From the IMG/VR virus record IMGVR_UViG_3300008261_000042: DNA of 64,000 nt; one strand, 5' to 3'. The translations under genes and the position numbers were made by a program. The notes below the pieces were generated by a model. The model ran no database searches. It was given only the letters and a program-made list of their open reading frames with translations, and was not told where the DNA came from. Shown here in pieces: positions 26,009 through 38,215 of this stretch (positions are counted from its first letter, which is position 1; each line of letters starts with the position of its first letter). The DNA is from a virus.

Positions 26009-26080
26009 GGGACTGTCGCCTATTGGTTAAGGCCCACTGCTTATAACGGTGTGAACTGTGTTCAATTCACAGCAGTCCTA
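26009..26080 (+). tRNA. tRNA-Ile (anticodon TAT)
   Basis: Acceptor GGGACTG/CAGTCCT, anticodon arm CACTG-CTTATAA-CGGTG, T arm with GTTCAATTC. Confidence 0.88.
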
Positions 26081-26086
26081 CTTGTT

Positions 26087-26159
26087 GCTGGTTTAGCTCT
26101 CTGGCGAAAGCACCGAACTCATAATTCGACTAAGGTGGGTTCGATCCCCACAACCAGCA
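26087..26159 (+). tRNA. tRNA with CAT anticodon (elongator Met or Ile2)
   Basis: Acceptor GCTGGTT/AACCAGC, loop CTCATAA, T arm GTGGG-TTCGATC-CCCAC. Confidence 0.85.
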
Positions 26160-26160
26160 C

Positions 26161-26189
26161 TTGACAATCTCAGCAATCCATGCTATGAT
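26161..26189 (+). promoter_or_regulatory. Sigma70-type promoter upstream of tRNA-Leu
   Basis: TTGACA, 17 bp, TATGAT with an extended TG. Confidence 0.8.
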
Positions 26190-26202
26190 TGTCTCATACC
26201 AC

Positions 26203-26286
26203 GGGGATGTGGTGGAAGTGGTAGACACACCAGACTTAAAATCTGTTGGGAGCAATCCCGTGGGGGTTCAAGTCCCCCCGTCCCTA
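26203..26286 (+). tRNA. tRNA-Leu (TAA)
   Basis: GGGGATG/CGTCCCT acceptor, loop CTTAAAA, long variable arm. Confidence 0.93.
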
Positions 26287-26321
26287 TTCTCACACTAAAT
26301 ATATTGTGTGGGATTTAACAC

Positions 26322-26594
26322 ATGAAATACAAGTACACCCTATCTCAACAATATTGTTTTTACATGGGGGAAGTTGTGCGTATGTATTTCATACAAGGTA
26401 TGCCATATACCTTTGACGAACTACCTCAAATAGTTCAAGATCATCCTTCTGTACAAGCAGAAGCACTACAACATCCAGATTATGATGATGAATGGCTTTA
26501 TATGGCATCAAATTATTTGATGACAGAAGCAGCTCATCCTCTTATGTTTGATATTGAAGTTGACAATCCAGATTTATTACCAAAAGATGATTGA
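26322..26594 (+). CDS. Conserved cyanophage hypothetical protein
   Basis: VVRMYFIQGMPYTFDELP; preceded by CTAAATA (26296-26302). Confidence 0.8.
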   Translation: MKYKYTLSQQYCFYMGEVVRMYFIQGMPYTFDELPQIVQDHPSVQAEALQHPDYDDEWLYMASNYLMTEAAHPLMFDIEVDNPDLLPKDD

Positions 26595-27111
26595 AGAATT
26601 CAAAGAACTTTTAGTTGGCAAATTTGAAAACAAACTTCAGGCTTTTAAAAATCCAAGTAAGTTTGCTTATATCAGAATTACTCATGTTGATATTGGTGAT
26701 GGTCTTTACTACGGTGAACAAGCATACAACTATAATTTAAAATCTCCTTATCGTCAGTTTATTCTTGAACCTATTCAAGAAGAAAATCAAATTCGTATTC
26801 TTAACTACGAAGTTGAAGATAAGAATCAATTTAAAAATTGTCAAAACCTTGACAAGATTAATAGAAGTATGCTAAAATTAAAGAGTGGTTGTGACGTAGT
26901 TGTGACTAAAGATCAAGATTCATTTAAAGGTGGTCTTACTGGTTGTGAATGTTATGTAGATTGGATGGGTAGAAATACTTATCTTCAAAATCAAATTGAA
27001 TTGAACTCTACTCATTATTATGTAATTGACAAAGGATTTTGTGCAGAACACAATCATCAAATTTGGGGTTCTAAATATGGTAGATTTGAATTTGCAAGAA
27101 TGCCACTTTAG
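26587..27111 (+). CDS. cpeT: CpeT/CpcT-like (T-type) phycobiliprotein lyase
   Basis: GKFENKLQAFKNP, YGEQAY...PYRQ, GCDV, C.V, DKGF, QIWGSKYGRFEF motifs. Confidence 0.9.
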   Translation: MIEEFKELLVGKFENKLQAFKNPSKFAYIRITHVDIGDGLYYGEQAYNYNLKSPYRQFILEPIQEENQIRILNYEVEDKNQFKNCQNLDKINRSMLKLKSGCDVVVTKDQDSFKGGLTGCECYVDWMGRNTYLQNQIELNSTHYYVIDKGFCAEHNHQIWGSKYGRFEFARMPL

Positions 27112-27175
27112 CTCAGCTGGATAGAGCAACGGTTTTGTAAACCGTAGGTCGTCGGTTCAAGTCCGACATGTGGCT
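27102..27175 (+). tRNA. tRNA-Thr (TGT)
   Basis: Anticodon arm ACGGT-TTTGTAA-ACCGT, canonical D and T arms; 5' end overlaps the cpeT stop. Confidence 0.93.
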
Positions 27176-27177
27176 TC

Positions 27178-27246
27178 CGCTATTTCATGCGCTGGAAAGA
27201 TAAACCAGAATGCCGTTATAGCGTCGGGGTGGGCACTGTCCACCCC
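27178..27246 (+). ncRNA. Candidate structured ncRNA between tRNAs
   Basis: CGCTAT/ATAGCG stem enclosing CTGG-AAAGATAAA-CCAG, then a GGGGTGG-GCACTGT-CCACCCC hairpin. Confidence 0.4.
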
Positions 27247-27250
27247 ATCT

Positions 27251-27322
27251 CCTCTGGTAGTCTATTGGTAAGGACGGGTGGACAACACACATGGAAACTA
27301 GGTTCGATTCCTAGACAGAGGT
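27251..27322 (+). ncRNA. tRNA-like element with degenerate anticodon arm
   Basis: Acceptor CCTCTG/CAGAGG, D arm GTC-TATTGGTAAG-GAC, perfect T arm CTAGG-TTCGATT-CCTAG; no U33 and no 5-bp anticodon stem. Confidence 0.7.
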
Positions 27323-27327
27323 AACAA

Positions 27328-27409
27328 GTCGATGTGGCGGAATTGGTAGACGCACTGGGTTTAGGTTCCAGTGTCTTCGGACGTGGAGGTTCAAGTCCTC
27401 TCATCGACA
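27328..27409 (+). tRNA. tRNA-Leu (TAG)
   Basis: GTCGATG/CATCGAC acceptor, loop TTTAGGT, variable arm GTC-TTCG-GAC. Confidence 0.93.
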
Positions 27410-27422
27410 TTGAATTTGGTTT

Positions 27423-27489
27423 TTCCAAATTCAACTTTTAAATCCACGAAACGGGGAAAAAATTCTCCGCCAAAAAATAGCCAAAAAAG
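27423..27489. repeat. A-tract intergenic element, copy 2
   Basis: TTCCAAATTCAA...GGAAAAAATTCTCCGCCAAAAAATAGCCAAAAAAG. Confidence 0.75.
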
Positions 27490-27502
27490 TTGAGGTAAAA
27501 AA

Positions 27503-27643
27503 ATGACGTTACTTTCAAAGAAAGATCACGAAATGGTTATCGAAGCACTTGAGGCATTAATTGAGCAAAAAGATGAAGATAATCGTTTTGAATATATGAA
27601 TCTTTTGCAGTGGGTTAAAATTAAATCAAAAGATAGCTTTTGA
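27503..27643 (+). CDS. Small hypothetical protein (46 aa)
   Basis: GAGGT RBS; MTLLSKKDHEMVIEALE...LLQWVKIK. Confidence 0.7.
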   Translation: MTLLSKKDHEMVIEALEALIEQKDEDNRFEYMNLLQWVKIKSKDSF

Positions 27644-27649
27644 TTATAT

Positions 27650-27721
<72 letters not shown>

Positions 27722-27760
27722 TTGGCGATACTGCCAAGAACCAACCCTTCCGTGTGACTT

Positions 27761-27792: not shown

Positions 27793-27800
27793 TATAAATA
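27793..27800 (+). promoter_or_regulatory. T4-type late promoter
   Basis: Perfect TATAAATA 40 nt upstream of ATG 27841. Confidence 0.85.
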
Positions 27801-27840: not shown

Positions 27841-27915
27841 ATGGCTCTTACAAGACTTGATAACCTTTACTCAAGTAAGACAGGAAAATACAAGATTCTC
27901 GTATCTTCCAGGTAA
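27841..27915 (+). pseudogene. Out-of-frame N-terminal fragment of the giant structural gene
   Basis: MALTRLDNLYSSKTGKY is the recognisable start of this cyanophage protein family, but it hits a stop at 27913-27915. Confidence 0.7.
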
Positions 27916-30900
27916 AGATAACGATAGATTCGACCAGTTTAGCATCATGTTGATGCCTGGTGATCACTATATTGATAACCGTCCTGGTCTTGTTGACCTT
28001 GATGATTCTGATAGACAGCGTTATTTTGATGCCAGAAATCTCATCAATGCCAATAGAGATGAGATTGTTGATAGAGCGTTTGCTCAAATCATGCTTGATT
28101 ATCGTGAAGATCTCTGGGGAACTAATTGGGTTGTTCCTGGTGATGATGTAACTGATGAATTTTCACGTTATAAAGATGCATATCGTCTAATTCAAAAAAA
28201 TAGACAACAAATTATTGATACTGCTTATGCAGAAATTGCTATTCAGCATCCTACATTTGTAAACCCAAATCCAGTAAAGTGCCAAAGAGATATTGGATAC
28301 TTTATTGATGCAGTTTCTCTTGATATTTCTCTTGGTGGTGCTAATAAGTACACCAGAAAATTCCTACAAAATTACTTCTCTGGCAACACTTGGAAATCTA
28401 ACACTCTTGAAGGAGAAGAGGTAGAATCCAATACTGCATTTACTAAAGCATCTGCTTTGATGAAGCAAGCAGTTGCTAATCAACTAGTTTATAAGGATCT
28501 TACTATTACTCCAGATCCTTCATATGGATCGAATACAAATCCAGGAGTTTGTGGTAACGTTCAAACAGCTATTGATACCCTTAAAATTTTAGTAACTTCA
28601 TATGTTACTCAGGGTAATATCGATGATCTTGATACAGAAGCACCAGAAACAGTTCCAGAAGCTGGTGCTGGAATGTCTAAGTGTAAGCGTGATATTGGCT
28701 ATATTGTAGATGCTGTTGCTTCTGATATCGGTAATGGTGGTAATGCTAGTGTCATTGCTGCAACTAAAGCATATTTTAATGCAAATGGTACTCCAATTTC
28801 CAATGGATTAGTTGGTGAAGTAACTCAATCCGTTATTGCATTTAATTCTGCCAAGCTAATGATGCAGAAGGCAGTAACAAATCAGCTATATGTTAAAGAT
28901 TTAACATTATCTGAAGGTCCAGCTGATTATTCTGCTGGTGGTGCTGCAATTCCAAATCTACCATCAGGAAATCCAGCAACTTGTGTTGATGTACAAGCAT
29001 CTATTGCAACTCTAGTTAACATTATTACTTCTTCAATTGAAGATGGTAATTTAGATGGTCTTGCTGATCTAGAAATTAGTGGTGATATTCCTGTATTCTA
29101 TTTTGATCAGGCAAAGCAAGAATGGAATGATCAATCAGTATTGGATCTTTCCAACCCAGATAACGTACTATATAAGTTCAATGCTTCTACGGGTGGTGCT
29201 ATCGTACCTAGAGGCTGTTCACTCGTTGGTTATGACCTTCGTAGAACTATTGTACGTCCTCTTTATGTTCCAGATCCTGCTGACGGAACACAAGGAAGAA
29301 CATCAATCTTTAATCTAACTGGTGGTTGCTATATTTGGCAGTTTACTATCAAAGATGGTGATCTATCAGAAAATTCACCTCTATATGATGCAAATGATAG
29401 AGTTGGTAAAGTATATTTCCAGAAGGGTAACAATAGTCAGCTAGCGATTCCTGAGTATTCGCACCATAAGATTACAATTATGGAATATGCGGAGGACTTT
29501 GAACTTGAAAAGTATTACCAGAAAGTTGGTAAGGCGTTCTCTCTATTCCAGCCAACAATTGATAATGGCGATTTTGAAGCACTTCCTCAAGAAAATAGAA
29601 TTGTTGGACCTCTTTCTGATACCAGAAGCATTGTAAATCTACGTCTTGTTTCACAATCACAATCTGGTGGAAGAGATAAAACTCTTATTGAAGCTACCAC
29701 AAAAATTCCTCACGGATATTTTGTGGGCCAATCTATTGCAATTATTGATACTCAAATAAGCGATCTTTTAAATGGAACTTTTAAGGTTGCTGCAGTTGAT
29801 GATACAGATCCAAAGAAATTCCGTTACGAGGTAGAAGCAACTCCTACTATTCTTGGTCTTGAAATTAATGCTGAAGGATATGATGCTGGATCAACCCCAG
29901 CATTAAGTGTCAACTGTAGAGCACAAGCAGAAATTGACTCTGTAGAATCTGCATCACCATATGTCTTCAACTGCTCAATCAGATCCACCTGGGGTCTCTG
30001 TGGCATGTGGGCAGATGGTGCTAAGGCAACTGGTTTCCGTTCGATGGTTGTTGCACAGTATACTGGTGTTTCTCTGCAGAAAGATGACCGTGCTTTCATC
30101 CGTTACGACGAATTTAGCAACACATGGAACCAAGCATCACTAACTGATGCTTTTGCTACTGTTCCTTATCACACCAAGGGCGATGCTTATTGGAAGGATG
30201 ACTGGAGAAACTTCCACATTCGTGCTTCTAATGATGCATTCATTCAGTGCGTTTCGGTCTTCGCTGTTGGATTCTTTGATCACTTCTTGATGGAGTCTGG
30301 TGGTGACATGTCCATCACCAACTCTAACTCAAACTTCGGTAACACTTCTCTACACGCTATTGGTCATAAAGGATTTGCTTTTAACCAAGATAAAGGTGGT
30401 TATATTACTGATATTATTCCTGTCAAGGAAATTGATGATAGTGCTTTCAATCAAGAAGATCAAAAGTATTATTCTATTGCTATTCAACCAACCAAAGACC
30501 CTTCAAATAAGACAAAATTATACTACGGCACAGACGAAGCATATAATCCTTTCTTAAAGCCAGCTACATCTATTAATGGTTATAGATTGGGTGCTAAAAC
30601 TAATGAAAAGTTATTTGTAAAAATTAAATCAAGTGTAGGAACGACTATTCCATTTGAAAGCACTGTTTCTCCATCTGGATTTAAGCGTTATACAGTTGCT
30701 TTACAAACATTAAACCCAGATGGTATTGTTATCAACAATTTAGCACAAGATGCTGCTAATTTAATTGAAGATAATAAGGCATTTATTCAAAAAGAAGCAT
30801 ATGGATATATTACAGCAAAATATCCAGATCTTTTAACAAATACTAATATTACTATTTCAAAGTGTGAAAGAGATATTGGTTATTTTGTTGATGCTGTAGT

Positions 30901-33900
30901 TTCTGACCTAAGATTAGGTGGAAATATTAATACAATTCAAGCAGCGGAAGGTTATTATGTTGGTGGTCAGCTTGCATATATTCAAAATGAACTTAATGAA
31001 TCGTTAGAAGCATACGATTATGTTAAGAATTTGTGCATTTCTGCGATGAGAAACTTTGATTATCTCATCCGTAATTGCACTACTATTGCTGGCTCTGCTA
31101 TTGTTGATATTGGAGATACTACTGGTATTGTTATTGGTATGAAAGCTACTCAATATGAGTATAATACTACCAATTTTACTAATGGTAAATTAAACACAAA
31201 TGCAACTCCAATTACATCTGCAATTCCATCTGGTGCTTATGTAAAAAGAATTATTGATAGCTCAAGAATTGAATTAGGTGTTCAAGGAAGCTATTTGAAT
31301 ACAGGAACTACGGTAACAGCTAATATTTCTACTGGATCTGCATATATTTACTTTGAACTTCCTAAAACAGCAAGTTTAACTGATAACGAAAATCTTCTTT
31401 CTGGTGTTTGGTCATCAGTAAATGCTAAGCGTGATCCAACAGTAATTCAAGATGCTACAGCATGGGAAATTAGTGATCCTGATGGATATCCAGAGTGCAG
31501 TGGAGTTGCTACTACTATTATTGGCTATTTTACTAATATTTCTCTAATTTTAAGTCAGGGACTTACTCCAGTTGGTGGTAGATGGGTAGACGCATCAAAT
31601 CTTATTTTAGCCAACAAGAATTTAATTGCTAATGAAGCAGTTGCTAGAATGTTAGCAGCAAATCCAGGATTCTCTGTTCCTGGTGGTAATCAAAATTGTA
31701 TTGATGATGTATTACAAATTATCGATGCTTTAGCATTTAACGTAAAATATGGTAGCAATAATAGAATTTATGATGCTGCAAAAATTTATGTAGAACAACC
31801 AAATCTTCTATCTGGAGAAAGAGAACAATCAGTAGAAGTATATCTTGAAGTTAGAAATATGGCTATCCAAGCCATGAGAAATGAAACAATCAATATACAA
31901 GGATCTCATGGTTTAACCCAAACTATTGATAATAGTGTACTACTTGAGTATGATGGAAATGGTAATTTAGTAACACCAGCTTGTGCTGATGTAGCTAGTG
32001 CTATTACTACACTAATGGCAATTATTACGAATGCTATTGGTACAGAAGCAGATCCAGGTGATTTAATCGGTATTGTTAGAACTGCTCCTACATTTACTAA
32101 TATTACTAGAGTAGAGCCTGTTCTTGATACAGCAAACCTTGCCGCAAGATCAACCATCTTTACCGTAAATACTGGTCAAGGTTCTTCTAACCCTCATAAT
32201 TTTGAAACTGGAACTCCAGTTCGTCTCGTTCCTAAGGCAAGAGAGGGTACAAATCCTGACAAGAGAGTTATTAGACTTCCCAGAGGATTTGAAACAAATA
32301 CAATTTATTATGTAATTGCTCCTGGTAGAAAAACAACCCCAGAAGACTATTCAAATTCTGCTAAGTATCAAGATATTTTCACTGCAGATGCTTCAACTCG
32401 TTTGATGCTTGCATCTACTAAAGAAAATGCTGCTGCTGGTATTTACATCTATTCATCTGAAACTGATGCAATTGATCCAGATGTTCAGATTGAATTGCAA
32501 CAATATGTATTAGATGACAGTTATGATCTACATCAATATTTGTGTAATTTTGCAACTGGTCAAACTGATGTAATCCAAACCGATGTTCCACATATCTTTG
32601 ATGTTCCAGGATCTATAAACACAGTTCATAAAGTATTCTTTAGAACTTTCGGAGATCCCAATGAGTCGGAACTTCCTCAAATCTCTTCTGGAGGAACGAA
32701 TGCTGAGGTAGATCCTAATAGATATTACTACGTTAGATATGTAACTAATAAGACTTTTGCTGTATTTGAAACTGCTGCTCAAGCTATTGCTGGAACACCA
32801 AGAATTACATTTACTCCAGGATTTGGACAAAATTTCTATGTATTCTCCGACAAGAGAGAAAGCCCAGTAAGATTTGATGCAGCACTTCAAAATGACGACA
32901 CTTCAACTGGACAATGGTATGTTAATGTATTAGATGAAACATCAAGTACTAATAATATTATTGCTAGATTCCAAGAGCTTGGTGATACATTAAAAGATAG
33001 TAGAAGTAAAAATACTTTCTTCACACGTCTTGTCGATAATAGAGAAAAAGAAGATAGAATTTATCGTTTACGTTATGTAATTCCACAATATGCTGATGGT
33101 GTTCGTGATCCATTAAATGGATTTGTACTAAAAGCAAGAACTGATACAACAAGAAAACTTCTTCCTCAGCGTATTGTTTTAAGTCCAGTATCTTCTGGCT
33201 CCCCAGATCTTGCTTATTTTGAAATTCAACTTCCAACAGAAGCTGGTGGAACTATTGCACAACAGCTTGGATTACCAAAGAGTCAATTAGATCCAAACTT
33301 CTCTTATGATCCATATAATGTTAATAGTGTAAAAATTGTATCTAGTGACAAAACTTCTAGTAAAGTTTCATTTAGTATTCAGTCTGCTAGACAAGTAAAT
33401 GTAAATGGTGATAATTTATTAGAATTAACTGTATTTGATCATACGATTACTAATGATGCCTTAAAAAATGAAACTTTCGTAACAGTTAAAATCGAAGCAC
33501 CACAAGAAGGTACATTTAGAGCTACTGAAGGATTCAATACCATTATTTGGAATGGAAACTCTTCTGGATCTGCTACAATTCAGGCATACTTCAATGTTCC
33601 TGAAACAAATGAGCATTATTTAATTTTAAGAGCTGTAACTGGTTCTATCAATTACAATCCATTAATTGATACCGTATTCTATCAACCACTACTTGATGTA
33701 AATAATGATCCTGTGCTTGATAATCAAAATCAACCAGTGCAGATTTATGCCAAGCTAATCAAAAAGCCAAATAGTGTTGGTAGTCCAAATGAATCTAAGA
33801 GTAAGTCAGAAAAAGCTGATTACTTATACAGCAACAAAGATGCTAATGTCTTAACTGTAACCCCTGGTGATATTATTGAGGATGACGATGCTACTCAGTA

Positions 33901-36900
33901 TAGAGTTATTTCTGTTGAAGATTCTGGAGAAATTGAAGATTCATTCTATATCTTTGATATCAATGAAATTCAAAGAAGAATTCCAAATCAACAGGAAGGT
34001 GTTTACTATTTAACTTGTGTTAAGGGTAATGTTTCTCCATTCCCAGTTGGAGCTGGTGTTGGTACAAACTTCAGAAACTTTAAGTTCTCTCAACCAATTT
34101 CACAACTATATCCACTTGATTACAAAAATGATCCATTATGGTTCCAAATTAGACCAGATGGTTCTAGAGACACCACATTAACAGATGTTCCTGCTACTAT
34201 TTGTGCTGCTGATAATTATGTTCATGGTTTGGTAAGAACTAATGATTATAAGAATAGTGAAACTAAAGAAGTTGTTCTAGATTTAGTTAATAATCCAGCA
34301 CTTGATCGTTATGATTATACTGGATTAATTTCGGCACAATCTGGTAATGCAACCTCTGGGTCTGAAGATCGTAAGATTTCAATTGCTGGAAATTCAGTAT
34401 ATCCAACAGAAGGTAGATTATATGTAGAACTTCGTCGTCCATCTATTGCTCGTTCTGGTAACCACACGTTTGAATATCTTGGTTTCGGTCCTGGTAACTA
34501 CTCAACTGGTTTCCCACTACGTCAAGAAGTTGTTCTTTCTGATATTCAAGATTTCTATGCTCAATCTAAGCGTGAAGATGGTGGTATTGTATTCTACACT
34601 GGTCTAAACTCTAATGGAGATCTTTACATTGGTAACAGAAAGATCAATGCCATTACTGGCGAAGAAACTTTCCTAGAAAGAGCTGAACTTATTTCTTCTG
34701 ATGATGACGGTGGAGATCTTGGTAATCTTGTTACTACATTTGAACTTCCAGTTGTATTTGAAAGAGACATTACCGTTGATGGCGATGCTACATTCAACAA
34801 TCCAGTAACAATTAATGTAGAGCCAAATGAACCAAATGCATTAACTGTTATCTCTAATATTGACGCAAACTCAGGCGAAGATACTTCACTTGATAGTGCT
34901 ACATTTGCTTTAAGCACCATCGAATCTGAAGGTAACATTACACTTCATAAGAATAAAATCTATGCTGGTGTATATGCATTTAACCCAAGAGGAAGTGTAA
35001 CTATTCCTGGTCAAAATTATAGCATTAGAACTCATGCAGACCAAACAAATGGCAATTTACCTTCAAATATTACTCCAAATCAAACAAATGGAAGTTTAGG
35101 TAAGCAAGTACAATATGGTCAGAAATCACCAAAAGCTGGTGATATCTTACTAAAAGGTGTTGAAGTTGGTAAGTCTGGATCATTAGGATGGATATTTGCT
35201 AATTTCTATACAAATAAAACATCTAATGTATTTACTGTAAGAGCTGATGGTAACTTATCAGTAACCTTTACAATGCAAATTGGTATTTCGCCTACCGATA
35301 TTGGTATTGCTCAAGGAACTGAAGTTAAATTTACTGGATTTAGTGGTAGATTCCAACCAGTAAATGGAGTTAGAACTGTTTCTGCAGTAACTGCAACTAC
35401 ATTTACTATCAATACACAAGTTATTGTAGCACAAAGTCCAGATGATCCAACACGTTTAGATCAAGAACAAACTAATGCATTGATTGAGGTTTCTTCTGTA
35501 CAGTGGAAAGAAGTTGGTGTTCTTGGAGCAGAAGCATTAAGAACAAATACGGATAATTATGGCGACTTTAGACTAGGTATTAATACTTTTGCAAGAGCTG
35601 ATCACATTGATCGCTTGAATGGATTTGTTTCCGCAGCTACTCAGCCAAGAGCAAATCTTGATATTGTTGGTACTGCATTTGTAAGTGGTAAGACACTCAC
35701 AACTTCGCCAGTTAATAGCTTTGTTTCAAATCCAACTGCAGCAAATAGAGTATTTAATAACGTAGGAAATGCATTCTTAGTTGGTGGTGATAGTGTAAAT
35801 CCAGATTCAAATGCAACTTTACGTGTTGCTACTACTAATAATGGTAGAGTTGGTATTAACACAAATCTAGGAAATCTAGATAGAACATTTGTTGTTTATG
35901 GTGATGCTAGAATTACAGATGAAGTAAGATTACAAAAGAATCTTGAGGTAAATGGTGGTAATATAACTACTACACAATCATCATTCAATTTAGCAGTTAC
36001 TAATGCAACTTCTGCCGCTGCATTTAGTGTTGCTAGAAATATTTCATTGGGTACACTTGTAAGTGCAGATCAGGTTATTACTCTAGGTATTAATCCAAGT
36101 TCACAGCAAGTTAATATTGGTACATTTACTCCAGATGGAGAATTTAATGTACACAGCAATGGATCAAAATCCATTATGAATTTGGGCACATCAAATAATA
36201 CAAGTACAGCAAGTATTAGTGTTATTACTATTGGTGGTGCATTTGCAAAGAATTCAAACTCTAAAGAAGATGGTTCTGTATTCAATGTAAAAAATAGATA
36301 TACAGAATTAGATGGTGATTTATCAATTGGTACTGGATTAGTAACAGGTACTGGAATTGCTAGATTGCAGTCTAATGCGTTGCAAGTTGAGATGTTTACG
36401 GTAAACACCTCAAGATTAAACTTTGCAACTGGTGTTGGTAGATTAAGCATTGGTTCCAAAGGTGGAACAACAACGATTAATAACTCATTAGTTGTTGAAG
36501 CAAATACTACCATGAAGGGTGATGTAACTCATCTAGGTGGTTTAAATGCTGGTCAATACCAAATTAGAAGAGGTTCTTTTGCAACTCCAACTTCAGCTCA
36601 TGTAAGAGGAAGTATTGATAATACTAACATTGACTTCTTCTCAAGAGTAACAATTGATAGAACAATTGATACCCAAGGTGCTGCTGTTTGGTCTGGTGCA
36701 GAATTTTTGGTTGATTCCAATGATCCAACAGAATACTATCTACCAATCGGTCAGGTTAGCACAAATATTCAATTTGAAGTTGGTGCTTATCTATTAATTG
36801 ATAGATCAGTTCAGGTTGATCAGCAAAACACTATAATTTCTCCAGTTGGAGAACAATACAGTGAGTTATTATTAGTTACAGAGTTAACTAACTTGAATAA

Positions 36901-38215
36901 CGTTTCTGATCTTCCACTACGTATTAAAGTTAAGAGGGCAAGAAACCGTCTTGATCAAAATGGTAATATGATTGTAGATGGTGCATCACCATCTGGCTAT
37001 AAGTATCTAAGAAATGATCACCCAGATAACGCTAAGATTATTAGATATAATCTTTCGGAAGATGTTAGCTTTATTGATAACGCTAATGGTCTTGCTAATG
37101 GCATTACTGGTGCATTAGAAAATCTTTCAACTGGAGTATTCAGTGGAACAATTAAACAAGGTGATATCTTCAGACTGAGTGATTCTGAACTTACTTTCAT
37201 TAATCAAATTAATGTCACCTCACCTCAAAGATTTGTTATTAATGATGGAGGAACACCATCAGTTGATGTGTTTACAGTAGATTCTACTACTGGTGACACA
37301 GAAATTCTAGGTAATCTTAGTGTTTATAAAGATATTCGTTTACTTGGTTCAAATACAGAAAATAATCAAAGATTGATTATTAGAGATCAAAGTAATAATG
37401 ATAGATTTGTAGTTGATAGTGCTACAGGTAAAACATATATCTTCGGAAATTTAAATGTTGGAAATTCTACAAATTATAATAGATTATTTGTTGATTCTTC
37501 CAGTGGAGATACTACAATTAGAGGTGGTGATCTATTAATCACTGCTGATAATATTGATAATACTAAATTATTCTTACATAATGGTACTGGTAACTTAACA
37601 ATAAGTGGACTATTTACATCACAAACTACTTCTGGTGAAAACGTATTTAATACTGACCTTAAAGTTAATGGTAATAACTTAACATTCAACAAAGTATTAA
37701 ATATCGGTGGTGAAGATACTGAAGTTAATCTATTCAAAGTTCGCTGGATTGAGCAAGCTACAAATAGACCTTCAGGTGGTGCAATTGATTTTGCTGGACA
37801 GCAAGGATTCTTTACACAAACTGGAGCTAGAAAGTGGCAATACATACAGGCTGGACAAGATGTTGTAACAGTACAATCTAATGTTAACTATTTTGTTTCA
37901 CCTACAGCTACTACTGTGCTTAAATTACCTTCTAATCCTCTTACTGGAGATACAATTAGAGTCGTTGATGTTGGCGGAAACTTAACATATAATGTATCAT
38001 TGAAGTTTAGAGCACCATCTGGTATTGCAATTCAAGGTGATACAACTAATTCTGGAGGAACACCAGATCCAGGAACTACATATAATGGGGGAGAACTAGT
38101 AGTTCAAACTCCAAATGCTGGATTAGGACTTGTATACGTTGGACCTGTTAATTATGATGGAACGTCTACTGGTGCTCCAGCATCGCAACAAGGTTGGTGG
38201 TTAATGGAAATCTAA
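27857..38215 (+). CDS. Giant virion structural/tail-fibre-like protein (~3450 aa) with phycobiliprotein-like helical repeats
   Basis: PGDHYIDNRPG, GGAIVPRGCSLVGYDLR, SASPYVFNCS, SMVVAQYTGVSLQKDD, ELRRPSIARSGNHTFEYLGFGPGNYSTG; fibre-like C-terminus LP..P..GD.IRVVD...GWWLMEI. Confidence 0.9.
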   Translation: MITFTQVRQENTRFSYLPGKDNDRFDQFSIMLMPGDHYIDNRPGLVDLDDSDRQRYFDARNLINANRDEIVDRAFAQIMLDYREDLWGTNWVVPGDDVTDEFSRYKDAYRLIQKNRQQIIDTAYAEIAIQHPTFVNPNPVKCQRDIGYFIDAVSLDISLGGANKYTRKFLQNYFSGNTWKSNTLEGEEVESNTAFTKASALMKQAVANQLVYKDLTITPDPSYGSNTNPGVCGNVQTAIDTLKILVTSYVTQGNIDDLDTEAPETVPEAGAGMSKCKRDIGYIVDAVASDIGNGGNASVIAATKAYFNANGTPISNGLVGEVTQSVIAFNSAKLMMQKAVTNQLYVKDLTLSEGPADYSAGGAAIPNLPSGNPATCVDVQASIATLVNIITSSIEDGNLDGLADLEISGDIPVFYFDQAKQEWNDQSVLDLSNPDNVLYKFNASTGGAIVPRGCSLVGYDLRRTIVRPLYVPDPADGTQGRTSIFNLTGGCYIWQFTIKDGDLSENSPLYDANDRVGKVYFQKGNNSQLAIPEYSHHKITIMEYAEDFELEKYYQKVGKAFSLFQPTIDNGDFEALPQENRIVGPLSDTRSIVNLRLVSQSQSGGRDKTLIEATTKIPHGYFVGQSIAIIDTQISDLLNGTFKVAAVDDTDPKKFRYEVEATPTILGLEINAEGYDAGSTPALSVNCRAQAEIDSVESASPYVFNCSIRSTWGLCGMWADGAKATGFRSMVVAQYTGVSLQKDDRAFIRYDEFSNTWNQASLTDAFATVPYHTKGDAYWKDDWRNFHIRASNDAFIQCVSVFAVGFFDHFLMESGGDMSITNSNSNFGNTSLHAIGHKGFAFNQDKGGYITDIIPVKEIDDSAFNQEDQKYYSIAIQPTKDPSNKTKLYYGTDEAYNPFLKPATSINGYRLGAKTNEKLFVKIKSSVGTTIPFESTVSPSGFKRYTVALQTLNPDGIVINNLAQDAANLIEDNKAFIQKEAYGYITAKYPDLLTNTNITISKCERDIGYFVDAVVSDLRLGGNINTIQAAEGYYVGGQLAYIQNELNESLEAYDYVKNLCISAMRNFDYLIRNCTTIAGSAIVDIGDTTGIVIGMKATQYEYNTTNFTNGKLNTNATPITSAIPSGAYVKRIIDSSRIELGVQGSYLNTGTTVTANISTGSAYIYFELPKTASLTDNENLLSGVWSSVNAKRDPTVIQDATAWEISDPDGYPECSGVATTIIGYFTNISLILSQGLTPVGGRWVDASNLILANKNLIANEAVARMLAANPGFSVPGGNQNCIDDVLQIIDALAFNVKYGSNNRIYDAAKIYVEQPNLLSGEREQSVEVYLEVRNMAIQAMRNETINIQGSHGLTQTIDNSVLLEYDGNGNLVTPACADVASAITTLMAIITNAIGTEADPGDLIGIVRTAPTFTNITRVEPVLDTANLAARSTIFTVNTGQGSSNPHNFETGTPVRLVPKAREGTNPDKRVIRLPRGFETNTIYYVIAPGRKTTPEDYSNSAKYQDIFTADASTRLMLASTKENAAAGIYIYSSETDAIDPDVQIELQQYVLDDSYDLHQYLCNFATGQTDVIQTDVPHIFDVPGSINTVHKVFFRTFGDPNESELPQISSGGTNAEVDPNRYYYVRYVTNKTFAVFETAAQAIAGTPRITFTPGFGQNFYVFSDKRESPVRFDAALQNDDTSTGQWYVNVLDETSSTNNIIARFQELGDTLKDSRSKNTFFTRLVDNREKEDRIYRLRYVIPQYADGVRDPLNGFVLKARTDTTRKLLPQRIVLSPVSSGSPDLAYFEIQLPTEAGGTIAQQLGLPKSQLDPNFSYDPYNVNSVKIVSSDKTSSKVSFSIQSARQVNVNGDNLLELTVFDHTITNDALKNETFVTVKIEAPQEGTFRATEGFNTIIWNGNSSGSATIQAYFNVPETNEHYLILRAVTGSINYNPLIDTVFYQPLLDVNNDPVLDNQNQPVQIYAKLIKKPNSVGSPNESKSKSEKADYLYSNKDANVLTVTPGDIIEDDDATQYRVISVEDSGEIEDSFYIFDINEIQRRIPNQQEGVYYLTCVKGNVSPFPVGAGVGTNFRNFKFSQPISQLYPLDYKNDPLWFQIRPDGSRDTTLTDVPATICAADNYVHGLVRTNDYKNSETKEVVLDLVNNPALDRYDYTGLISAQSGNATSGSEDRKISIAGNSVYPTEGRLYVELRRPSIARSGNHTFEYLGFGPGNYSTGFPLRQEVVLSDIQDFYAQSKREDGGIVFYTGLNSNGDLYIGNRKINAITGEETFLERAELISSDDDGGDLGNLVTTFELPVVFERDITVDGDATFNNPVTINVEPNEPNALTVISNIDANSGEDTSLDSATFALSTIESEGNITLHKNKIYAGVYAFNPRGSVTIPGQNYSIRTHADQTNGNLPSNITPNQTNGSLGKQVQYGQKSPKAGDILLKGVEVGKSGSLGWIFANFYTNKTSNVFTVRADGNLSVTFTMQIGISPTDIGIAQGTEVKFTGFSGRFQPVNGVRTVSAVTATTFTINTQVIVAQSPDDPTRLDQEQTNALIEVSSVQWKEVGVLGAEALRTNTDNYGDFRLGINTFARADHIDRLNGFVSAATQPRANLDIVGTAFVSGKTLTTSPVNSFVSNPTAANRVFNNVGNAFLVGGDSVNPDSNATLRVATTNNGRVGINTNLGNLDRTFVVYGDARITDEVRLQKNLEVNGGNITTTQSSFNLAVTNATSAAAFSVARNISLGTLVSADQVITLGINPSSQQVNIGTFTPDGEFNVHSNGSKSIMNLGTSNNTSTASISVITIGGAFAKNSNSKEDGSVFNVKNRYTELDGDLSIGTGLVTGTGIARLQSNALQVEMFTVNTSRLNFATGVGRLSIGSKGGTTTINNSLVVEANTTMKGDVTHLGGLNAGQYQIRRGSFATPTSAHVRGSIDNTNIDFFSRVTIDRTIDTQGAAVWSGAEFLVDSNDPTEYYLPIGQVSTNIQFEVGAYLLIDRSVQVDQQNTIISPVGEQYSELLLVTELTNLNNVSDLPLRIKVKRARNRLDQNGNMIVDGASPSGYKYLRNDHPDNAKIIRYNLSEDVSFIDNANGLANGITGALENLSTGVFSGTIKQGDIFRLSDSELTFINQINVTSPQRFVINDGGTPSVDVFTVDSTTGDTEILGNLSVYKDIRLLGSNTENNQRLIIRDQSNNDRFVVDSATGKTYIFGNLNVGNSTNYNRLFVDSSSGDTTIRGGDLLITADNIDNTKLFLHNGTGNLTISGLFTSQTTSGENVFNTDLKVNGNNLTFNKVLNIGGEDTEVNLFKVRWIEQATNRPSGGAIDFAGQQGFFTQTGARKWQYIQAGQDVVTVQSNVNYFVSPTATTVLKLPSNPLTGDTIRVVDVGGNLTYNVSLKFRAPSGIAIQGDTTNSGGTPDPGTTYNGGELVVQTPNAGLGLVYVGPVNYDGTSTGAPASQQGWWLMEI

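What the first reader, a model, noticed from the sequence alone, without database searches (positions are those of the whole stretch)
28019..32040. Four phycobiliprotein-like domains with bilin-site cysteines inside a giant virion protein
Seen in sequence: the 3.4-kaa late structural ORF has four helical repeats with the pattern DA.NLI..N...I...A...(Y/H/N)P...KC.RDIGY..DAV..D...GG...M..A..N...C..V...I. One unit, RWVDASNLILANKNLIANEAVARMLAANPGFSVPGGNQNCIDD, recalls beta-phycocyanin RLDAVN.I..NA..IV..AA..L....P.L..PGGN...CLRD. KCQRDIGYF, KCKRDIGYI and KCERDIGYF match the alpha-84 site KC.RDIGY. PECSGVATTIIGYF resembles the beta-153/155 site GDCS....E...YF. The first-type Cys codons are at 28280, 28682, 30863 and 31697; the second-type at 28550, 28982, 31496 and 31982. 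Inference: these are globin-like phycobiliprotein folds grafted into a tail protein, and they may carry covalently bound bilins, giving a pigmented or light-responsive virion or a mimic that binds host antenna. The similarity is by eye only.
Basis: partly seen in the sequence, partly recalled or inferred. Interest (0 to 1): 0.95.

Follow-up and report, generated by a model that had tools for sequence, protein, structure and literature searches.

The report
Pigment-protein domains in cyanophage tail fibre
A giant tail-fibre protein of a marine cyanobacterial virus carries four copies of the fold its host uses to hold light-harvesting pigments, each keeping both pigment-attachment sites, and the virus's own unexplained pigment-attaching enzyme is encoded just upstream, so it is now directly testable whether these virus particles are pigmented.

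Summary
Confirmed. The 3.4-kaa ORF is a T4-like cyanomyovirus short tail fibre (phrog_4527) with four true phycobiliprotein relatives: Pfam PF00502 above cut-off, and a template-free model matches beta-phycoerythrin (Z 17.4, rmsd 2.0 A over 143 residues). They are not simply tandem: repeat 2 is nested inside repeat 1, and relatives nest up to about 12. Both bilin cysteines and both aspartate counter-ions (beta-84 and beta-155 sites) are 97-99% conserved in 197 non-redundant domains. A sister subfamily in non-cyanophages keeps site 84 but loses the site-155 Cys and Asp together, which argues against a disulfide; its one complete genome lacks cpeT and carries heme oxygenase plus bilin reductase. 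The window's cpeT (a lyase type specific for Cys-155) lies 0.7 kb upstream, and cpeT and the domain co-occur in 15 of 16 cultured cyanomyoviruses. Best reading: a virion biliprotein and the missing substrate of phage CpeT (about 0.6). No bilin adduct is shown, and the pigment's purpose (light-gated adsorption, photoprotection, stabilisation) is open. I found no paper describing this; earlier notes of this scan reported the same domains on other DNA.

The parts
27857..38215 (+). Giant short-tail-fibre / virion structural ORF (3452 aa as read; probably about 3493 aa from ATG 27841 in the intact gene)
   Evidence: phrog_4527, 4103 bits; P0040 identical over the last 3440 residues; followed by collar and short-fibre genes
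28019..28105 (+). Repeat 1 (outer), helices A-B, with the beta-39-type Asp at 28028
28166..28615 (+). Repeat 2, a complete domain inserted in the B-E loop of repeat 1; Asp 28175, Cys 28280, Asp 28289, Cys 28550
   Evidence: model pTM 0.92; Z 16-17.6 to beta subunits
28661..29047 (+). Repeat 1 (outer), helices E-H; Cys 28682, Asp 28691, Cys 28982
30746..31564 (+). Repeat 3; Asp 30749, Cys 30863, Asp 30872; an insertion of about 130 aa (about 31073-31480) precedes helix H with Cys 31496
   Evidence: not folded on its own
31580..32041 (+). Repeat 4, contiguous; Asp 31589, Cys 31697, Asp 31706 (Arg of the motif replaced by Asp), Cys 31982
   Evidence: AlphaFold2 pLDDT 94; Z 17.4, rmsd 2.0 A, 143 aligned to 5aqd_M; Foldseek
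26587..27111 (+). cpeT, T-type phycobiliprotein lyase; proposed enzyme for the second (beta-155-type) cysteines
   Evidence: PF06206 135 bits, E 3e-39; synteny; co-occurrence
26294..26301 (+). Late-promoter-like ACTAAATA in front of the two-gene unit (26322-26594 plus cpeT)
   Evidence: TAAATA 284-304 nt upstream of cpeT in the closest loci, a perfect TATAAATA in S-PM2; motif match only
27793..27800 (+). T4 late promoter TATAAATA in front of the fibre gene
   Evidence: consensus from PMC2984593

Best explanation
The fibre is a phage-made biliprotein. Four X/Y-less, beta-type phycobiliprotein domains are inserted into loops of the fibre and into each other, so the chain runs out through helices A-B and back through E-H and the domains stack into an arm (shown by sequence and model). 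Late in infection the fibre is made together with CpeT (inferred from promoter motifs and position). Host or phage bilin is attached by thioether bonds: at the CxRD site by self-assembly or a host S-type lyase, at the helix-H cysteine by phage CpeT (inferred). The particle would carry up to eight bilins per fibre chain. What the pigment does is the least certain step. My rough split: light-gated adsorption 0.3, photoprotection or oxidant quenching of the free virion 0.3, bilin as a folding or stiffening cofactor 0.25, other 0.15.
For: Fold and homology. HHalign puts helix-A Asp, Cys1 and Cys2 on beta Asp39, Cys82 and Cys153. Conservation in 197 domains under 70% identity: Cys1 98%, Arg 89%, Asp 99%, Cys2 99%, helix-A Asp 97%. 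Sister subfamily, 88 proteins and 1168 domains: Cys1 98%, Arg 97%, Asp 99%, but Cys2 2% and helix-A Asp 18%, so the site-2 residues are lost as a unit. Its one complete genome has no psbA and no cpeT but has adjacent heme oxygenase and bilin reductase. In 16 cultured cyanomyoviruses: both present 8, both absent 7, domain only 1, cpeT only 0; Fisher p 0.0014. All 13 cpeT loci with 8 kb or more downstream (about 9 distinct) have a domain gene within 1-5 kb. T-type lyases are site-specific for Cys-155 (PMC2327270). CXRD globins bind bilin without a lyase (PMC10151467). Two domain-bearing ORFs of S-SCSM2R (104, 112) were found in CsCl-purified virions by mass spectrometry (PMC12801897).
Against: No adduct, spectrum or lyase assay exists. 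The 16 genomes were hand-picked and are not phylogenetically independent. The adjacency holds in one clade only: in P-HM2 cpeT is 35 kb from the nearest domain, and cpeT follows gp5 in any case. P-SSM2 and S-SSM7 encode a bilin reductase but no detectable domain, so the domain does not explain every phage bilin gene. S-SKS1 has a two-cysteine domain and no detected cpeT. Single repeats lose Cys1 or Cys2, and many replace the Arg. Only 2 of 28 sister-subfamily contigs showed bilin genes, though all but one are fragments, and a 73% complete one showed none. I found no report of coloured virions.
Confidence: 0.6

Rival explanations
1. Exapted scaffold: the globin domain is only a rigid building block, and the cysteines form disulfides (between domains or chains) or are kept for packing; cpeT serves host phycoerythrin.
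For: Nested insertion is a structural design. Some repeats lose a cysteine. An earlier, unchecked scan note (e1-5319967) reports wholly Cys-less copies in a jumbo phage. The published view is that phage cpeT supports the host antenna (PMC10452541).
Against: The sister subfamily keeps one Cys per domain at 98% with no partner. Cys1 and Cys2 are lost independently. In beta subunits the two sites lie about 30 A apart (own knowledge), and the model follows that fold at 2.0 A. Both Asp counter-ions are conserved, and one co-varies with its Cys. No cpeT-positive genome lacked the domain.
Confidence: 0.2
2. The domains carry bilin, but host lyases or self-assembly load both sites; phage CpeT has another job.
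For: Hosts have their own T- and S-type lyases (PMC2327270). CXRD globins self-assemble (PMC10151467). S-SKS1 keeps Cys2 without a detected cpeT.
Against: cpeT and the two-site domain co-occur, while the single-site subfamily lacks cpeT. cpeT sits in the structural module behind a late-type promoter.
Confidence: 0.15
3. Antenna mimic: the domains bind host phycobilisome parts or NblA, or sequester bilin inside the infected cell.
For: Same fold as the host antenna proteins.
Against: X/Y pairing helices are absent. The domains are buried in 3-7 kaa virion proteins. They occur in Prochlorococcus phages and in phages without psbA, whose hosts have no phycobilisome.
Confidence: 0.05

Closest known systems
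Phycobiliprotein beta subunits (CpeB, CpcB, cryptophyte beta; Pfam PF00502)
   Same: Helices A, B, E, F', F, G, H superpose (Z 17.4, rmsd 2.0 A); Cys84 with Asp87, Cys155 with Asp39; long G-H loop as in phycoerythrin beta.
   Different: No X/Y helices, no Cys50/61 site, no conserved Asn72 loop; 15-18% identity; repeated and nested inside a virion fibre. The helix-E sequence is closer to alpha subunits (HHalign 96% against 90%). Phage domains sit on a separate long branch, not inside alpha or beta (unrooted, quick method).
Bilin biosynthesis-associated globins, BBAG-1/3 (PMC10151467)
   Same: Non-antenna globins with CXRD, linked to bilin synthesis genes, binding bilin without a lyase; the nearest functional analogue of the single-site sister subfamily.
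   Different: BBAGs are small bacterial proteins in clusters with V4R and Fe-S genes and are photoinert; no second (155) site and no virion location are described.
Cyanomyovirus short tail fibre / virion structural proteins (phrog_4527; also 5342, 701, 18802, gp7-like wedge proteins)
   Same: The ORF is a member; the repeats are shared among these families.
   Different: [quoted passage not shown]
Phage CpeT and hemO/pcyX/pebS auxiliary genes
   Same: cpeT is present here; hemO plus a bilin reductase occur in sister-subfamily genomes.
   Different: They are usually read as supporting the host antenna, with the role called unresolved (PMC3037559) or light harvesting unlikely for non-cyanobacterial hosts (PMC11480375); here the acceptor would be the virion.

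Membership tests
Phycobiliprotein (PF00502) | Profile score above the curated cut-off | tested here: met
   36.3 bits against 22.2
Phycobiliprotein (PF00502) | Globin-type core A-B-E-F'-F-G-H | tested here: met
   Z 17.4, rmsd 2.0 A, 143 aligned; best non-phycobiliprotein Z 10.7; repeat 2 Z 16-17.6. Repeat 3 was not modelled.
Phycobiliprotein (PF00502) | Cys84 motif CxRD with Asp87 | tested here: met
   Cys and Asp in all four repeats, Arg in three; 98/89/99% in the family
Phycocyanin/phycoerythrin beta subunit | Cys155 with Asp39 | tested here: met
   In register with the beta profile; 99% and 97% conserved
Light-harvesting phycobiliprotein | N-terminal X/Y helices for alpha-beta pairing | tested here: not met
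   Structural alignments start at host residue about 32; the domains are internal to a fibre
Phycoerythrin beta subunit | Doubly linked Cys50/61 site; Asn72 loop | tested here: not met
   No Cys in helices A-B; the loop is short, variable and used as the insertion site
Light-harvesting phycobiliprotein | Covalently bound bilin | not testable with these tools
   Needs spectroscopy or mass spectrometry
BBAG-1/3 | Small CXRD globin in a pre-PcyA, V4R, Fe-S gene cluster | tested here: not met
   CXRD is present, but the domains are inside a fibre whose neighbours are baseplate, tRNA, cpeT and collar genes. No BBAG sequences were in the tree.
T4-like cyanomyovirus short tail fibre (phrog_4527) | Full-length profile match in the baseplate-fibre module behind a late promoter | tested here: met
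   4103 bits; same gene order as S-PM2; psbA in the window
T-type lyase (PF06206), gene 26587-27111 | Full-length profile match | tested here: met
   135 bits, profile positions 2-181 of 181
T-type lyase (PF06206), gene 26587-27111 | Transfers bilin to a Cys155-type site | not testable with these tools
   Needs a co-expression assay

The most novel reading that the evidence does not exclude
Many T4-like aquatic phages build pigmented particles. Fibre and baseplate proteins are arrays of bilin-loaded domains, matured by phage CpeT in cyanophages and supplied by phage hemO plus bilin reductase in phages of non-photosynthetic hosts, and the pigment lets the free virion respond to light, which would explain light-dependent adsorption. 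P-HM2 and S-PM2 (light-dependent) have the domains; P-SSM2, which adsorbs in the dark, lacks them.
Probability: 0.25. Interest if true: 0.97.

Novelty: new variant of a known kind. Interest (0 to 1): 0.82.

Why it matters
It gives a concrete, purifiable substrate for phage CpeT, whose role is called unresolved (PMC3037559), and a candidate acceptor for bilins made by phages of hosts without phycobilisomes (PMC11480375). It also gives a molecular candidate for light-dependent adsorption, which is attributed to light-sensitive receptors or tail fibres and does not need host photosynthesis (PMC6628666). If bilin is bound, these would be chromophore-bearing virus particles, and several so-called auxiliary metabolic genes would be virion maturation genes. 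The family is large (1428 clusters at 50% identity; 401 cultured-phage records), and cultured phages exist for every test.

Tried and rejected
phmmer of one repeat pair against PDB found nothing useful; only the family profile did. Complex prediction of CpeT with repeat 4 gave no verdict and is not used as evidence either way. The idea that the domain is cyanophage-specific was dropped after the sister subfamily appeared. The idea that it explains all phage bilin reductases was dropped because P-SSM2 and S-SSM7 lack it. The reverse test from a bilin reductase found only three further short contigs and was uninformative. Balanced nesting held in 15 of 27 cleanly parsed architectures, so it is common but not shown to be universal. 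The region between repeats 1 and 3 got no Pfam or named Atlas match; its likeness to a beta-helix is by eye only. Gasper et al. 2017 on phage CpeT was not held. Nine paper searches found no description of these domains; most subscription papers are not searchable.
Full report
Setting. The window is part of a T4-like cyanomyovirus: psbA at 44-655, baseplate hub genes, a tRNA cluster, then ORF 27857-38215 and collar and short-fibre genes. The ORF matches phrog_4527, short tail fibre, at 4103 bits, in the same gene order as S-PM2, behind a TATAAATA late promoter at 27793.

Observation. Pfam PF00502 scores 36.3 bits against a cut-off of 22.2. Profiles made only from host alpha or beta subunits score the ORF 24.9 and 10.7 bits against shuffle maxima of 5.1 and 3.3. 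A profile of 93 phage repeats hits 143 PDB sequences, and all 60 shown are phycobiliproteins. Nothing else in the window carries the domain.

Fold. A template-free AlphaFold2 model of repeat 4 (pLDDT 94) matches phycoerythrin beta chains best by Foldseek (TM about 0.7). In a search of 48,161 chains the top match is 5aqd_M at Z 17.4, rmsd 2.0 A over 143 residues; the first eight rows are phycobiliproteins or ApcE, and other globins score 10.7 or less. The alignment starts at host residue 32, so the X/Y pairing helices are absent. HHalign places the helix-A Asp, Cys1 and Cys2 on beta Asp39, Cys82 and Cys153. That Asp87 and Asp39 are the counter-ions of the beta-84 and beta-155 bilins is my own knowledge of phycocyanin structures.

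Architecture. Repeat 2 is inserted whole into the B-E loop of repeat 1; the nested pair models at pTM 0.92 and repeat 2 matches beta chains at Z 16-17.6. Relatives extend this like brackets, for example nine opening halves, one whole domain, then closing halves, about 12 domains in all. Of 27 cleanly parsed architectures 15 were balanced. Repeat 3 has an unrelated insertion before helix H.

Conservation and the disulfide rival. In 197 domains under 70% identity, Cys1 is 98%, Arg 89%, Asp 99%, Cys2 99% and the helix-A Asp 97% conserved (the set was seeded on these four repeats). A wider profile search found 1428 clusters, including a sister subfamily with up to 34 repeats per protein. There Cys1, Arg and Asp stay at 97-99% in 1168 domains, while Cys2 falls to 2% and the helix-A Asp to 18%. 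Total cysteine counts leave no partner for most Cys1. Single repeats in P-TIM40, P-SSM7 and S-SCSM2R lose one cysteine or the other. An obligate disulfide does not fit this; two independent bilin sites do.

Link to CpeT. The gene at 26587-27111 is a full-length T-type lyase, the class that is site-specific for Cys-155 (PMC2327270). All 13 cpeT loci with enough downstream DNA (about 9 distinct) have a domain gene within 1-5 kb, and the closest have a late-promoter motif about 290 nt upstream of cpeT. Among 16 cultured cyanomyoviruses, 8 have both, 7 have neither, S-SKS1 has one domain only, and none has cpeT alone (p 0.0014). These genomes were hand-picked and are related, and adjacency fails in P-HM2. 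The one complete genome of the single-site subfamily has no psbA and no cpeT, but has adjacent heme oxygenase and bilin reductase; a second, 65% complete contig shows the same. The other 26 contigs are fragments and showed neither gene. P-SSM2 and S-SSM7 have reductases without the domain.

Virion location. Two S-SCSM2R ORFs that carry the domains were detected in CsCl-purified particles, without the fold being recognised (PMC12801897). For this window's protein, location rests on family and gene context.

Origin. In a quick, unrooted tree both phage subfamilies lie on one side of a long branch (SH-aLRT 99), apart from alpha and beta. The donor cannot be named, since no allophycocyanin or BBAG sequences were included.

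Mechanism. Shown: homology, fold, nesting, conserved site residues, gene context. Inferred: bilin attachment (about 0.75) and CpeT as the site-2 lyase (about 0.6 overall). Speculative: purpose. Light-dependent adsorption is attributed to receptors or fibres and is independent of host photosynthesis (PMC6628666). P-HM2 and S-PM2 have the domains and P-SSM2 does not, but that is three phages, P-SSM2 still adsorbs less in the dark, and the related BBAGs are photoinert (PMC10151467).

Novelty. It is a member of the phycobiliprotein fold family but not a light-harvesting phycobiliprotein. Nine paper searches found no description (among them). Earlier AI notes of this scan reached similar readings on other genomes; my reading was written down before I saw them, and they are not independent support. 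Verdict: real; new variant of a known kind; interest 0.82.

Noticed in passing
window 27841-27920: The ATG frame of the fibre gene stops after 24 codons; 107 nt (35 codons plus 2) present in the otherwise identical P0040 and in L001/L002 orthologues are missing. Assembly gap or real lesion is unresolved.
   Followed up: partly
window 26009-27722: Seven tRNA genes flank cpeT. One called tRNA-Ile has the unusual anticodon TAT, and tRNA-Thr overlaps the cpeT stop region, as in related phages.
   Followed up: no
G020:C1:112182-126047 (L053): In this sister-subfamily protein, repeats of about 108 aa cover helices A-G only, and helix-H pieces are grouped elsewhere, including before them: a different nesting point or a circular permutation.
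   Followed up: no
P-SSM7 NC_015290 13407-14535 (L114): cpeT lies directly next to the bilin reductase gene.
   Followed up: no
S-SKS1 NC_020851 17301-17780 (L086): A single two-cysteine domain in a 928-aa open frame, in a genome with no detected cpeT.
   Followed up: partly
window 27857-28018 and 29051-30700: The sequence around repeats 1-2 looks by eye like a right-handed beta-helix interrupted by the pigment domains; no Pfam or named Atlas match confirmed it.
   Followed up: partly
S-PM2 NC_006820 165928-177267 (L078): The record lists 16 tRNAs inside the orthologous fibre CDS, probably an annotation carry-over.
   Followed up: no
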